Below are positions 54,393 through 59,548 of a stretch of DNA of 64,000 nucleotides, piece after piece. The number at the start of each line of letters is the position of its first letter. Position 1 is the first letter of the stretch. A program made the translations under genes and the position numbers. The notes beneath the pieces were generated by a model. That model was not told the origin of the DNA, ran no database searches, and worked only from the letters and a program-made list of their open reading frames with translations. Source of the DNA: a virus (Duplodnaviria > Caudoviricetes); the IMG/VR virus record IMGVR_UViG_3300001487_000106, positions 1-64,000 of that record; one strand, given 5' to 3'.

Positions 54393-55331
54393 GTGTATAA
54401 TATGTATATTGATAAAAATACTAAAAATAAAACATTTCAGAATATGTTTTATGAACTACAGGATAAAGGAGTAAACTATGTTGGTTCATCAGAAATACTC
54501 AAAACTGAGAATAAATCGTTACTAAATTTTGATTATCAAAATATGCCAGAATCAGACCCAATATCTGGACGAAGTTATTATGATATGATTCTATCAGAAT
54601 GTAAAAAAAATATATGGTTTTTCTTTAGAGAGATTGTACGTATACCAATTATAGGGCAAGATAGTACGTATGATCATTCAATGCAGTTTCCTCTAAATAA
54701 AACGTCATTACTCATGATTTGGTGTTACGAAAATAAGATACCTTTTTTTGTAGTTGGTGATACAAAGAAATCAGAAATGCGAATCGTAACGCTACAGTTA
54801 CTTTGTCTTTATGATTTTTTGTTTCATTATAACAGTACACCATATATGCACATCATAACCGATGAAAATGATGTTGTAAATCATCTTAGTGATCTACAGG
54901 ATGATTTTGAAACATATTCAAGCATTAATAGCGCTGTAATACCAAGACTACTTACTATGAATTTCTATCACGCTGTTACTGCAGGAAATATAAATAAATC
55001 TTTATCTTGTGGGATTGACAATATCAATTTTAAAAATGATGATGAGACAAAATATTTTGGAAACTATTTTGGATTCTCTGTGGGTAAAAACAAACATCTT
55101 TGTAAGATTTTAAGTACACTTAAGAAAACTATGCCAAATGATACTCATATAGCATTTGAAGCTAATATTCATGATATATGCGATAGTGATATTGGATATT
55201 ATATTCTTGATTTGATGCCTAAGATTACAACTGAATATATATCAAAAGAAGACGATGGTGAAAAGTTTACACATCAGCATTTTATTCAGAATCATTTGAG
55301 AAATAGTATATGTGTGATAATTGATGAATAG
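54393..55331 (+). CDS. Degenerate paralog of the terminase large subunit N-terminal region
   Basis: ILSECKKNIWFFFREIVRIP vs IMTECMRNPWYYLREISRIP; no Walker A. Confidence 0.65.
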   Translation: MYNMYIDKNTKNKTFQNMFYELQDKGVNYVGSSEILKTENKSLLNFDYQNMPESDPISGRSYYDMILSECKKNIWFFFREIVRIPIIGQDSTYDHSMQFPLNKTSLLMIWCYENKIPFFVVGDTKKSEMRIVTLQLLCLYDFLFHYNSTPYMHIITDENDVVNHLSDLQDDFETYSSINSAVIPRLLTMNFYHAVTAGNINKSLSCGIDNINFKNDDETKYFGNYFGFSVGKNKHLCKILSTLKKTMPNDTHIAFEANIHDICDSDIGYYILDLMPKITTEYISKEDDGEKFTHQHFIQNHLRNSICVIIDE

Positions 55332-57203: not shown

Positions 57204-57572
57204 CAAAAAATCAAAAATTAAAAAGCATTCATCATGAGGACCGGGATAAACTCCTTTAATTGCGGGGAACTCTCGTTAGGTCTTAACTACTAAACTAATA
57301 TTTATATTAGTGGCGAAGGGTAACTCCTTAGGTATAGTAAAAAGGTTAAGAATAGAGACAATCCGCAGCCAAGGCTCTTATTAAGAGCAAGGTTCAACGA
57401 CTATCGAAAGCATAGCTTAAGAGAAATACTTAAGTAAAGAAGTGAGTAGAGTAGTGCCTATTTATAGGTTAGTTTTATGGTGATATTAGCCATAAGTAAT
57501 TCTATTAAAACGAAATGGGGAGCTCTTCATATTTGGTAATAGAATATGAAGATGATGATATAGTCTATATTG
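57204..57572 (+). mobile_element. Group I intron (IA-like, 369 nt, no homing endonuclease)
   Basis: P AATTGCGGGG (57258), Q AATCCGCAGC (57360), R GTTCAACGACTA (57392), S GATATAGTCT (57557); P1 with U57203.G57239; 10-bp P10; terminal G57572; splicing restores GPG-F-HDD. Confidence 0.92.
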
Positions 57573-57970
57573 TTCATGATGACTCTGTAATGAGCTATCT
57601 AATGTGCCTTTATGTTTATTATCATGGTAATAATCTCCCTGTATTTGGAATTATTAAAGGTAAATTAAACGAAGATGAACAAAATAAAGGATTGAAACAT
57701 GCCTCTGAAATCGATCCATCATTAGTTGATCCTAGGTTGATAGAGTCTGTAAAAAAACAAGAGCAACAGATAGCTCAACAGGAACAATGGAAACAGTTAA
57801 TGAAAGAGGCTGCTATTAAAGCACAGAAAGATACGTATAAACTGGTAAAAGCTGGTGAAATTCAAAACACGGTTTATAATAACACACCTGGAGAAATAAT
57901 CGAACAGATGGACGATGATACAAATGGTTCTATAGATTTGAGCTTTTTCAATAGTATAAACGGATTTTAA
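57573..57970 (+). CDS. terL: Terminase large subunit, exon 2
   Basis: Supplies the nuclease HDD motif in frame; spliced product is 709 aa. Confidence 0.9.
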
Positions 57971-57971
57971 C

Positions 57972-58021
57972 AAAAAAAAGATACAATATAATCTTTACTC
58001 TCGATTATATTGTATCTTTTT
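57972..58021. terminator. Bidirectional terminator
   Basis: aaaaagatacaatataatc...gattatattgtatcttttt. Confidence 0.8.
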
Positions 58022-58056
58022 ACATATCTATTTACGGTTTCATGTTGTGATTGAAA

Positions 58057-58098
58057 TTAATCAATCACAATATCGCAATCATTAAAATCGGGATACAT
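58057..58098 (-). CDS. 13-codon small ORF MYPDFNDCDIVID in a structured RNA
   Basis: Perfect RBS AAGGAGGTGA; early-type motif TATATATTAT at 58213-58222 (-); terminator downstream. Confidence 0.45.
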   Translation of the reverse strand: MYPDFNDCDIVID

Positions 58099-58297
58099 TT
58101 TATTCACCTCCTTATTTTTTTAAGTATCCCGTAAATAGATAATAATACAAATAACGGTTTGTATCCTTTAAAAACCGTTATTTTTTATTTGTATTATTTT
58201 TTATGCAAAAAAATAATATATATGTATTTATTCTGAATATGCGGTTTTATTATCATTATAACGTTACTATAATTTTTTATTGAAAGGAGACATGATT

Positions 58298-59548
58298 ATG
58301 TCTATTGAAGAAAATACTATTAACTCGGAAATTATCAATTCAGAGGAAAATGAATCCAATCCTATGAATTATAAGGTTATAGTTGATCTTATTAATGAAA
58401 TGGAAGATCAGTATAAAACATTGAAGTCTTTAGGTGAAGAGACAATTCATACTGCATATGATCTTAAGCCGGAAACGCTTATAGATATAATTCCAATAAC
58501 TAAAAATGATATAAAGGAAATGAGTAAAGAAGATGCTACAAAGTTTCTTAAAGCTCATAAATATAATATTAATATCAACGATGAACATGATCCATTAGAA
58601 GTTATGGATGCTGTTAAAGAGACTTCATTAAATATTCTTTCAGCTAAGATTGAGGCTGATAATATTCGTAAAGATTCGAAAGAAGTGCTTGAAGAATATT
58701 TTAATTATGCATCATCATCTAAAGCAAAAGAGGTCAGAATTCAGCGTCTTAATACATTAAAAGAAGCTGTTGAAAAGGAATCTGATGAGGGTAAGAAAAG
58801 AAAGATGATGCGAGAAATAAATGCAATGGAAGCATCACAAACTCTTTCATTTATTTTCGAAAGATTTAATTCAATAGGTTCTAAAGAAATTAAATCAATT
58901 AAGAATGCATTTTTTGATGCAAAACTTGGAAAAGAAATTGTTGATAGATATAAAAAGAAAATTATTAAGTTTGGTTTTGACCATAAACTTTATAGATATT
59001 TCTTAAATCTTGAGGAGAATTTCCTTGAGGAAGAATACCATTGTTTTAATAATCTTTTCCTGTTTATATTTATGAGAGCAGTTGTTCATTATGACCCATA
59101 TAATAAGACAGACAAGCTCTATGTACAGGCTATGGTAACATCTATGACAAATCTTATTTATCATAGATTTGATTCAACTACATCAGAGGATAATTTTGTT
59201 TCTATAATCAGAAAGGTTGTATCTTACTTTGATGAATATAGAGAATATTTTAAGGAAAATAATGAAACAGCACCCGATCATCCAACGAGAATTGAATCAG
59301 ATAATCGTTACAATAAGGAGAGGCGTGAACTCCTTATTAATAAAATGAATGAAATGAAGATAACTGATTATGATCCCAATGCATCTGCGGATGAACTTCA
59401 GCAGTACTTAAATGACTCACTTGAGAAAATGATAAAGGAACAGCTTCCTGAGAAGAAAGAAGAAAATAATGAAAATGATATTGATGATAGTGATACTGAT
59501 GAGGTTTTTGATGAGCCTGAGAATCCAGTAATCAATGATGTAGAATAA
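58298..59548 (+). CDS. Hypothetical protein
   Basis: Long ORF; RBS GAAAGGAG; terminator 59566-59602. Confidence 0.7.
   Translation: MSIEENTINSEIINSEENESNPMNYKVIVDLINEMEDQYKTLKSLGEETIHTAYDLKPETLIDIIPITKNDIKEMSKEDATKFLKAHKYNININDEHDPLEVMDAVKETSLNILSAKIEADNIRKDSKEVLEEYFNYASSSKAKEVRIQRLNTLKEAVEKESDEGKKRKMMREINAMEASQTLSFIFERFNSIGSKEIKSIKNAFFDAKLGKEIVDRYKKKIIKFGFDHKLYRYFLNLEENFLEEEYHCFNNLFLFIFMRAVVHYDPYNKTDKLYVQAMVTSMTNLIYHRFDSTTSEDNFVSIIRKVVSYFDEYREYFKENNETAPDHPTRIESDNRYNKERRELLINKMNEMKITDYDPNASADELQQYLNDSLEKMIKEQLPEKKEENNENDIDDSDTDEVFDEPENPVINDVE

What the first reader, a model, noticed from the sequence alone, without database searches (positions are those of the whole stretch)
57972..58222. 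Stand-alone structured switch RNA with a 13-aa ORF, convergent with terL
Seen on the minus strand: a perfect early motif (58213-58222), a long 5' hairpin (58142-58197) with GGAUAC near its apex, and then CGGGAUAC...GUAUCCCG, a stem that loops out a perfect SD (AAGGAGGUGA) and covers the AUG. A competing 12-bp long-range helix AUCUAUUUACGG (58129-58140) / CCGUAAAUAGAU (58026-58037) overlaps that stem. A hairpin covers the stop codon and a terminator follows. Established: 5'-3' long-range pairing with sequestered starts typifies type I toxin mRNAs and attenuator leaders. The peptide MYPDFNDCDIVID is acidic, unlike typical type I toxins. Inference: a conformationally controlled micro-peptide or dual-function RNA. 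On the plus strand the same stem would display an anti-SD loop.
Basis: partly seen in the sequence, partly recalled or inferred. Interest (0 to 1): 0.7.

Follow-up and report, generated by a model that had tools for sequence, protein, structure and literature searches.

The report
Folded mini-messenger for 13-residue phage peptide
An uncultured giant phage from animal gut samples carries a tiny self-contained gene, probably switched on early, whose tightly folded RNA encodes a conserved 13-residue acidic peptide of unknown target.

Summary
On the minus strand there is a 12-of-13 match to the AR9 early (virion RNA polymerase) promoter, with a predicted start at G58206. A 5' hairpin follows, then a perfect 13-bp helix that encloses a strong ribosome-binding site, a 13-codon ORF (58098-58057 including the stop) and a hairpin holding the stop codon. 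The unit ends at a 19-bp bidirectional terminator shared with the last exon of terL.

The ORF is a real gene. Against 95%-identical relatives, 7 of 9 changes fall at third codon positions. Distant relatives keep 11-56-residue peptides at the same place, with different codons but the same acidic-hydrophobic tail.

The messenger bodies of the micro forms are unusually folded (z -2.6 to -7.6 in 7 of 7). The one long-form messenger tested is not (z -0.5).

The "switch" reading is weak. The two stems share only 3-4 bases, they can coexist (-67.2 against -70.4 kcal/mol), and no covariation test is possible. The element matches no Rfam family. It fails the tests for a type I toxin and for an attenuator.

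RNA contigs did not cover the unit, so transcription is not shown. The peptide's target is unknown.

This scan found the same element earlier on other DNA (e1-5642579), with the same reading.

The parts
58213..58225 (-). Predicted early (virion RNA polymerase type) promoter, ACATATATATTAT. Six bases follow, then G58206 as the predicted transcription start.
   Evidence: It matches the AR9 early consensus AAATATATATTAT-(6N)-G at 12 of 13 positions (PMC5312081, passages read). TATATATTAT-N6-[GA] occurs 6 times in the 93-kb genome. Five of the six are intergenic, and four of those lie 26-60 nt upstream of a co-oriented ORF. A related motif stands before the small ORF in 9 of 11 relatives tested.
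58142..58197 (-). 5' hairpin of the RNA: outer AU-rich stem and inner stem 58149-58163 with 58169-58183, with GGAUAC in the apical loop. On the plus strand the inner stem is followed by a T run and so looks like a terminator.
   Evidence: (I3, I8). There is one compensatory change against L010/L011: 58155 C>T together with 58177 G>A.
58129..58141 (-). 5' arm of the 13-bp end-to-end helix (the 'clamp')
   Evidence: (I11): 100% complementary to 58025-58037 with 91 nt between the arms. Pair probabilities are 0.96-1.0 over 11 of the 13 pairs, and 0.35 and 0.77 for the two outermost. Both arms are invariant in L010/L011.
58124..58131 (-). CGGGAUAC, 5' arm of the local stem that loops out the ribosome-binding site. 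It overlaps the clamp by 3-4 bases.
   Evidence: pair probability about 0.07 in the full RNA, but this stem is in the minimum-energy fold of nascent 5' parts. Forcing it together with a shortened clamp gives -67.2 against -70.4 kcal/mol.
58104..58113 (-). Ribosome-binding site AAGGAGGUGA, 5 nt before the AUG
   Evidence: mean unpaired probability 0.63. Equally long sites precede the micro-ORFs of L013, L014, L017, L022, L034 and L035.
58057..58098 (-). 13-codon ORF MYPDFNDCDIVID plus TAA stop
   Evidence: Against L010/L011, 9 of 42 bases differ and 7 of them are at third codon positions. The peptide changes only C8T and D13E. The tail motif recurs in 11-56-residue peptides at the same site in distant relatives.
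58046..58069 (-). Hairpin with the stop codon in its loop
   Evidence: (I20). In L010 the outer pair is lost and an inner pair is gained, so 9 bp remain. A hairpin holds the stop codon, in an arm or in the loop, in 7 of the 9 relatives' folds shown.
58025..58037 (-). 3' arm of the clamp helix
57972..58021 (.). Bidirectional intrinsic terminator: a 19-bp perfect stem with A and T runs on either side. It is shared by the small RNA and the convergent last exon of terL.
   Evidence: (I2). There are 0-1 changes in 84 bases (57972-58055) against L011/L010, while third codon positions of the neighbouring genes differ at 8.5-8.6%. The simple terminator scan did not list it, because it demands three G-C pairs.

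Best explanation
This is a self-contained early gene of an uncultured AR9/phiKZ-type jumbo phage. It sits backwards between two late genes: the last exon of terL and a conserved 422-residue protein gene.

The phage's virion RNA polymerase is predicted to start at G58206 and stop at the terminator shared with terL, giving an RNA of about 235 nt. That RNA is the messenger for a 13-residue acidic peptide.

The peptide is the smallest form of a small phage family. The only constant part of the family is a C-terminal acidic-hydrophobic strand: an aromatic residue, then [DE][DN][TSC], then three or four V/I/L, then D/E.

Shown:
- the sequence features
- the exceptional folding
- selection on the codons
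- family conservation at the same site

Inferred:
- early timing
- the peptide acts in trans as a short docking or competitor motif on an unidentified host or phage protein
- the 5' hairpin, end-to-end helix and terminator serve to keep a very short messenger compact and long-lived, while leaving its strong ribosome-binding site open inside the enclosed loop
- it is not a two-state switch
For: The phage is of the AR9/phiKZ type:
- A 1422-residue RNA polymerase beta-like protein, terL, a large tail sheath and a major head protein match PHROG families.
- The best terL matches among deposited phages are Bacillus and Staphylococcus jumbo phages at 32-34% identity.

Promoter:
- 12 of 13 match to the AR9 early consensus, with N6-G.
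- The motif is placed before genes elsewhere in this genome and before the homologous small ORF in 9 of 11 relatives.

Coding:
- Window against L010/L011: 7 of 9 changes are at third positions.
- L014 against L035: 9 of 12 codons differ, 7 of them synonymously (read).

Family:
- An acidic-tail ORF lies on the same strand at the same site in 15 of 22 IMG/VR loci examined and in 13 of 36 metagenome loci scanned.
- There are nine distinct micro forms of 11-27 residues, and long forms of 45-56 residues.
- A profile of the long forms finds only 9 proteins among 1.84 billion representatives.

Tree of the neighbouring protein: seven micro forms group together (SH-aLRT 90) and long forms make two clades.

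Folding:
- Micro-form messenger bodies have z -2.6 to -7.6 (7 of 7, with 0-2 of 100 shuffles as good).
- Long form L025 has z -0.5.
- Other early transcripts of this genome have z -1.5 to -3.5.
- In all seven micro forms the leader pairs with the ORF or the 3' UTR around the start site, using unrelated sequences.
Against: - No transcript is shown. The RNA-library contigs of three runs cover only 58291-58641, inside the neighbouring gene. Contigs cannot show absence either.
- Early timing rests only on a motif match to a phage whose terL is 32-34% identical.
- The peptide's target is unknown. The AlphaFold model of the long form is unusable (pLDDT 49). Pfam, PHROGs, PDB sequence and Atlas searches gave nothing usable.
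- The stabiliser role of the fold is an inference. In L012 and L014 the ribosome-binding site is fully paired (unpaired probability 0.02 and 0.0), which would fit translational repression better.
- Only one long-form messenger was used as a folding control.
- The direction from long to micro form is not proven, because the tree has only a midpoint root.
- 7 of 22 and 23 of 36 related loci lack the gene, so it is dispensable.
Confidence: 0.72

Rival explanations
1. Conformational switch or dual-function RNA. The RNA toggles between the local stem, the clamp and a loop-to-start contact, so that translation is gated. Alternatively the RNA also acts by base pairing on another transcript.
For: - Two copies of GGAUAC (5' hairpin loop and 58130-58125) can each pair with GUAUCC at the start codon.
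- The local stem is the minimum-energy fold of nascent RNA before the 3' clamp arm exists.
- CCC>CCU in L010 keeps a G-U pair on the minus strand only.
- The non-coding 3' part is far more conserved (0-1 of 84) than neutral sites nearby.
- In L012 and L014 the ribosome-binding site is sequestered.
Against: - The stems overlap by only 3-4 bases and can coexist (-67.2 against -70.4 kcal/mol).
- The loop-to-start contact has zero probability in the nested-fold ensemble, which cannot model such a pseudoknot-type contact.
- The relatives with the same architecture are 95% identical, so there is no covariation test. More distant relatives use different pairings.
- Complementary 12-mers elsewhere in the 93-kb genome are not enriched: 39 against a shuffled mean of 25 and a maximum of 47. 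The longest match is the non-transcribed side of another gene's ribosome-binding site.
- There is no Rfam match.
Confidence: 0.15
2. Cis-acting mini-ORF. Translation of an acidic nascent chain matters only for the fate of its own RNA (ribosome stalling or drop-off, opening of the fold), and the released peptide has no function.
For: - The ORF is very short, acidic from the first codons, and bracketed by structure. A hairpin holds the stop codon in 7 of 9 folds.
- It is established from recall (no paper read here) that short acidic or proline-containing leader peptides can destabilise ribosomes and act as sensors.
Against: - There is no downstream gene to regulate. The terminator and the convergent terL follow directly.
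- The same motif sits at the C-terminus of 45-56-residue proteins and of a 145-residue protein in L017. There it cannot act as an N-terminal nascent-chain signal.
- The distance of the motif from the stop codon varies from 0 to 13 residues.
Confidence: 0.07
3. Mainly a DNA- or terminator-level spacer. The inverted repeats serve as double terminators or insulators between terL and the next late operon, or as a packaging-related site beside terL. On this view the ORF is incidental.
For: - The 19-bp hairpin is a bidirectional terminator.
- The inner 5' hairpin is followed by a T run on the plus strand.
- Folding is equally strong on both strands.
- The region lies next to terL.
Against: - The codon-position pattern and peptide conservation across unrelated nucleotide sequences speak against it.
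- The strong ribosome-binding site and the promoter motif are conserved on the minus strand only.
- Cultured Takahashivirus relatives and several metagenomic relatives manage with gaps of 52-110 nt after terL.
- The 308-nt region has no second copy in the genome.
Confidence: 0.04
4. Type I toxin-antitoxin-like module
For: A small ORF lies in a highly folded mRNA with 5'-3' long-range pairing.
Against: - The peptide is acidic, with no membrane segment.
- No antisense promoter or partner RNA was found.
- The ribosome-binding site is largely open.
- The unit lies in a lytic jumbo phage structural gene cluster.
Confidence: 0.02

Closest known systems
AR9/PBS1-type early transcription units (virion RNA polymerase promoters; Lavysh et al. 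2017, PMC5312081, passages read)
   Same: - The promoter consensus and spacing to a G start agree.
- Early genes are set in opposite orientation among late virion genes.
- The phage encodes multisubunit RNA polymerase subunits.
   Different: - The phage is only distantly related (terL 32-34% identical).
- The cargo is a 13-codon ORF in an exceptionally folded RNA.
- Cultured relatives have no such unit after terL.
- Timing was not measured.
Phage morons and PeSL-type cassettes (autonomous promoter-gene-terminator units between two genes; concept recalled, no paper read)
   Same: It has its own promoter motif and terminator, is inserted between two conserved genes, and is present in some relatives and absent in others.
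   Different: It is held at one syntenic site across relatives whose neighbouring protein is down to 32% identical. It is not a recent mobile insertion, and there is no repeat copy in the genome.
Intergenic short transcription units or sRNAs of giant phages (201phi2-1 and phiKZ, ONT-cappable-seq; PMC11512511, passages read)
   Same: These are short (<250 nt) stand-alone transcripts in intergenic regions of giant phages, and some are conserved by position.
   Different: Those are described as non-coding. This one has a selected ORF, and there is no sequence or structural similarity (no Rfam match).
Type I toxin mRNAs
   Same: Long-range 5'-3' pairing and a tiny ORF.
   Different: The peptide is acidic, there is no antitoxin RNA, and the ribosome-binding site is exposed rather than sequestered.
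Unprocessed very short signalling peptides of Firmicutes (leaderless communication peptides; PMC10518010, seen only as a search listing and start of abstract)
   Same: They are a precedent that a peptide of about 8-13 residues, translated as such, can be functional.
   Different: No receptor gene is seen nearby, no export is implied, and no sequence relation was tested.

Membership tests
AR9-type early (virion RNA polymerase) transcription unit | Promoter AAATATATATTAT-(6N)-G(+1) on the coding strand | tested here: met
   ACATATATATTAT-TTTTTT-G at 58225-58206: 12 of 13 positions plus the spacing.
AR9-type early (virion RNA polymerase) transcription unit | Phage encodes its own multisubunit RNA polymerases | tested here: met
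   The 1422-residue ORF 3698-7966 matches PHROG RNA polymerase beta families at E 2e-159. Only 39% of the genome is held, so the full subunit set was not checked.
AR9-type early (virion RNA polymerase) transcription unit | Transcript present early and independent of new protein synthesis | not testable with these tools
   The phage is uncultured. RNA contigs did not cover the unit.
Type I toxin-antitoxin | Small hydrophobic, membrane-active toxin peptide | tested here: not met
   MYPDFNDCDIVID has 5 acidic residues of 13 and no hydrophobic segment.
Type I toxin-antitoxin | Ribosome-binding site sequestered in the full-length mRNA, and an antisense RNA antitoxin | tested here: not met
   The unpaired probability of the ribosome-binding site is 0.63. 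On the plus strand this stretch lies between the terL terminator (I2) and the next gene's start, so the only plus-strand RNA expected over the ORF would be terL read-through. The one plus-strand promoter-like site listed there (58168-58197) faces away from the ORF.
Leader-peptide attenuator | A downstream gene on the same strand whose expression depends on leader translation | tested here: not met
   The terminator at 58021-57975 is followed by the convergent terL exon. The next minus-strand ORF of 100 residues or more ends 3.9 kb away.
Any catalogued RNA family (riboswitch, sRNA, leader) | Match to an Rfam covariance model at gathering score | tested here: not met
   No match in the whole window. 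In the permissive search of 57900-58320 only hairpin-like chance hits appeared, at 17-28 bits against thresholds of 54-83.
Dual-function (coding plus base-pairing) sRNA | A base-pairing target | tested here: inconclusive
   There is no enrichment of complementary 11-14-mers in the 93 kb held. The other roughly 60% of the phage and the host were not searched.
Acidic-tail micro-protein family of these phages (defined here) | Same-strand small ORF between terL and the 422-residue protein gene, ending in aromatic-[DE][DN][TSC]-hydrophobic run-[DE] | tested here: met
   Window FNDCDIVID, compared with EDTVVLD (L012), NDTVIIE (L013), EDSVVLVD (L014), DDTVIIEE (L034), WLDDTVLVED (L030) and WCDDTVLGD (L025).

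The most novel reading that the evidence does not exclude
The 13-residue peptide is a free-standing copy of a docking tail that longer phage proteins carry at their C-terminus. These are the 45-56-residue basic proteins, and a 145-residue protein in L017 that ends in YDDNSVLEE. Made in bulk at the very start of infection, the peptide would compete for, or occupy, the pocket of one hub protein of host or phage.

The closed-loop fold of its messenger keeps the stop codon next to an unusually strong ribosome-binding site. Ribosomes could therefore re-initiate repeatedly on a 39-nt cistron.

In the window lineage the clamp arms lie outside the reach of a ribosome at either the start or the stop codon, so the loop could stay closed during translation. 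This last point is reasoned from coordinates and was not tested.
Probability: 0.15. Interest if true: 0.75.

Novelty: new variant of a known kind. Interest (0 to 1): 0.52.

Why it matters
Genes of 11-13 codons are invisible to gene callers, yet here one is kept by selection across deeply diverged giant phages. Each lineage wraps it in its own version of a closed RNA fold.

If the peptide is a minimal docking motif, it points to a host or phage hub that jumbo phages address in the first minutes of infection. It would also give a 13-residue ligand with which to fish for that hub.

Only the shrunken forms have strongly folded messengers. That suggests a general rule for how very short cistrons are kept stable and translatable, and the rule can be tested in vitro with a 235-nt RNA.

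Tried and rejected
Searches and tests that gave nothing:
- Rfam: no family.
- DNA search of deposited phages: only short chance matches outside the element. Protein searches with the 422-residue protein and a long-form peptide: no match.
- Back-translated peptide pattern in IMG/VR: only the two close relatives.
- Pfam and PHROGs on four family peptides and on the L017 145-residue protein: nothing at or below E 0.02, and nothing above a curated threshold.
- PDB sequence profile: 0 matches.
- Atlas: best score 0.88, unnamed clusters, a lead only.
- AlphaFold of the long form: pLDDT 49, not used, so no fold search was run.

RNA evidence: of 24 runs listed, four were laid. The three RNA runs X18-X20 gave contigs only at 58291-58641. 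X17, which is probably DNA, carries a third allele of the element. There is no cover of the small RNA, which is no evidence either way.

Other checks:
- Paralogues: a loose tail-motif scan of the 93-kb genome found 7 hits. Besides the ORF itself, none was a credible gene end.
- Mobile mini-element bounded by the 13-bp inverted repeat: rejected, since there is no second copy.
- sRNA target: none.
- TerL-tail mimicry: the terL C-termini are also acidic-hydrophobic, but I could not align them convincingly with the peptides. It remains an idea only.
- Host: a 258-kb contig binned with a sheep Lachnospiraceae MAG, and one Treponemataceae MAG contig, encode 30%-identical relatives of the neighbouring protein. 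The former has no micro-gene there. Binning is weak evidence of host.

Complex prediction was not used, because no partner is claimed. Supplementary tables of PMC5312081 (promoter lists) were not seen.

The statement that I found no description in print rests on searches only.

Full report
CONTEXT

The window is the first 64 kb of a 93-kb IMG/VR virus record estimated 39% complete. It encodes:
- a 1422-residue RNA polymerase beta-like protein
- topoisomerase II subunits
- a major head protein
- terL
- a 996-residue tail sheath

Its terL is 32-34% identical to those of Bacillus and Staphylococcus jumbo phages of the AR9 type. The 151-residue ORF at 57515-57970 is the last exon of terL. Its residues 21-151 are 63% identical to the last 129 residues of an uninterrupted 707-residue terL in relative L013.

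The finding therefore lies in the 310-nt gap between the end of terL and a conserved 422-residue late-cluster gene (58280-59548). That gene matched no Pfam or PHROG family.

THE OBSERVATION

- The long-range helix is a perfect 13 bp (58129-58141 with 58025-58037).
- The terminator is a perfect 19-bp stem with A and T runs on both sides, so it serves both strands.
- The region folds far better than dinucleotide shuffles on either strand (z -9.9 and -8.45).
- Without the terminator hairpin the body still gives z -6.4.
- The first 185 nt of seven other predicted early transcripts of the same genome give -1.5 to -3.5.

Corrected coordinates: ATG at 58098-58096, TAA at 58059-58057, ribosome-binding site at 58113-58104.

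PROMOTER

The AR9 early promoter consensus is AAATATATATTAT-(6N)-G(+1) (PMC5312081, passages read).

- The minus strand reads ACATATATATTAT-TTTTTT-G. This matches 12 of 13 positions and puts the start at G58206.
- In the 93-kb genome, TATATATTAT-N6-[GA] occurs six times. Five are intergenic. Four of those sit 26-60 nt upstream of a co-oriented ORF, and the fifth is this one.
- The bare 10-mer is not enriched in the window, so it is the placement that carries the weight.
- With this start, the AU hairpin that one search drew across the motif is not part of the RNA. The RNA is about 235 nt long.

THE ORF IS A GENE

Two IMG/VR relatives with 95% protein identity in the flanking genes differ from the window at 9 of the 42 ORF bases.

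- Seven of the nine are third positions. One codon is wholly changed.
- The peptide changes only C8T and D13E.

The 422-residue protein's homologues then gave 21 distant IMG/VR loci and 38 metagenome loci.

- In 15 of the 22 IMG/VR intergenic regions examined, and in 13 of 36 metagenome loci scanned, the same strand carries a small ORF with a ribosome-binding site, a strong terminator and an acidic-hydrophobic tail. Several metagenome loci are the same contigs as IMG/VR loci, and several have little upstream sequence.
- Micro forms: MGPILFEDTVVLD, MDTNDTVIIEWDD, MFFGEDSVVLVD, MFFGEDEVVLID, MDLDDTVIIEE, MDEKEVIIDLSDTCIG, and a 27-residue form.
- Long forms: 45-56 residues, ending in ...DDDDWLDDTVLVED, ...DDCWCDDTVLGD or ...NYDDSDCVAF.
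- L014 and L035 differ in 9 of 12 codons, 7 of them synonymously (read).
- In L017 a 145-residue protein just upstream in the same unit also ends in YDDNSVLEE.
- A profile of the long forms finds only nine proteins in 1.84 billion representatives, all of this kind.
- No named family matches.

On a tree of the neighbouring protein, seven micro forms group together (SH-aLRT 90), the long forms form two clades, and loci without the gene are interspersed. This fits shrinkage of a roughly 50-residue protein to its tail, plus several losses. The root is only a midpoint, so the direction is not proven.

THE FOLD

In the full RNA:
- The clamp helix is essentially always formed, with pair probabilities of 0.96-1.0 over 11 of its 13 pairs.
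- The local stem CGGGAUAC/GUAUCCCG has probability 0.07.
- The ribosome-binding site and the AUG are mostly unpaired (0.63 and 0.71).
- The stop codon sits in a hairpin loop.

The local stem is the best fold of the nascent RNA before the 3' clamp arm is made. It overlaps the clamp by only 3-4 bases. A structure with both lies 3.2 kcal/mol above the minimum. This is a branch-migration detail, not two exclusive states.

Evidence from the close relatives is thin:
- one compensatory pair in the 5' hairpin (58155 with 58177)
- a G-C to G-U change in the local stem that is tolerated only on the minus strand
- a stop hairpin that keeps 9 bp by losing an outer pair and gaining an inner one

Across the distant micro forms the sequences and exact pairings differ, but the plan recurs. 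The leader pairs with the ORF or the 3' UTR, so that the start site lies inside a closed loop.
- L013 and L034: the leader pairs with the codons for TVIIE, with one C-G to U-A exchange between the two.
- L035: the leader pairs with codons 2-5.
- L014: the ribosome-binding site pairs with a 3' anti-site.
- L022: a 12-nt loop shows the ribosome-binding site while the AUG is paired.

All seven micro-form bodies fold significantly (z -2.6 to -7.6). The one long-form messenger tested does not (z -0.5).

WHAT IT IS NOT

- No Rfam family matches.
- No downstream gene exists for an attenuator.
- The peptide is acidic, so it does not resemble a type I toxin.
- No second copy exists that would suggest a mobile mini-element.
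- No enriched complementarity to the rest of the 93 kb was found.
- Cultured AR9-type phages have gaps of only 52-110 nt after terL.

WHAT IS NOT SHOWN

- Transcription, timing and translation. Of the runs found, the three RNA runs gave contigs only inside the neighbouring gene.
- The target of the peptide.

UNEXPLAINED

Third positions of the micro-ORF differ at 7 of 14 between the window and L010. The two flanking genes differ at 8.5-8.6% of third positions, and the 84 nt of 3' UTR and terminator at 0-1. A third, intermediate allele exists in run X17. So the ORF is a local hot spot of mostly silent change set in very conserved RNA.

VERDICT

This is a real, undescribed micro-gene with an exceptional messenger fold. 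The switch interpretation is not supported, and the function is open.

The scan had already reached the same reading for the near-identical element on another genome (e1-5642579). I reached it independently before seeing that note.

New here:
- the contrast in folding between micro and long forms
- the energetic test of the switch
- the L017 tail
- the tree
- the divergence pattern

Noticed in passing
window 57260-57582 and 57515-57970: terL is interrupted. The 601-residue ORF ends at 57259. Residues 21-151 of the 57515-57970 ORF are the terL C-terminus (63% identical to residues 579-707 of an uninterrupted terL in L013). I did not test the intron fold.
   Followed up: partly
window 54393-55331: A 312-residue ORF just upstream of terL matches only the N-terminal part of terminase large-subunit PHROGs (E 8e-10). 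It looks like a truncated paralogue.
   Followed up: no
window 58057-58098 compared with 57972-58055: The micro-ORF is a hot spot of silent change: 7 of 14 third positions differ from L010, against 8.6% in the neighbouring genes. The adjacent 84 nt of 3' UTR and terminator show 0-1 changes. Run X17 carries a third, intermediate allele.
   Followed up: partly
window 58149-58192, plus strand: The inner 5' hairpin of the small RNA is followed on the plus strand by TTTTTTATTT. It could act as a second, back-up terminator for terL read-through.
   Followed up: no
L030 and L031, minus strand upstream of the 53-residue family member: The same predicted early unit first encodes a 30-residue hydrophobic peptide (MILSIGMKILIGL...) with its own ribosome-binding site.
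   Followed up: no
L017 2430-2867, minus strand: A 145-residue protein with no family match ends in the family's tail motif (YDDNSVLEE). It is followed in the same unit by the 16-residue micro-ORF. The tail therefore occurs on unrelated N-terminal parts.
   Followed up: partly
L025-L029, 3' UTR between stop codon and terminator: A hairpin of about 60 nt (GUAAC...GUUAC) has an apical part that varies between five close relatives while the base stays paired. It is a candidate for covariation analysis.
   Followed up: no
G000 about 64500-64790 (beyond the window), minus strand: A second stand-alone folded RNA ends in an 8-codon ORF (MFTIIKIP). The peptide is unrelated to the one studied here. It was already followed up by the scan (e1-6217591).
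   Followed up: partly
L074 (258-kb contig binned in a sheep Lachnospiraceae MAG): A jumbo-phage-sized contig in a bacterial MAG encodes terL and a 30%-identical relative of the 422-residue protein, with only 93 nt between them. It is probably a phage genome binned with a possible host.
   Followed up: partly
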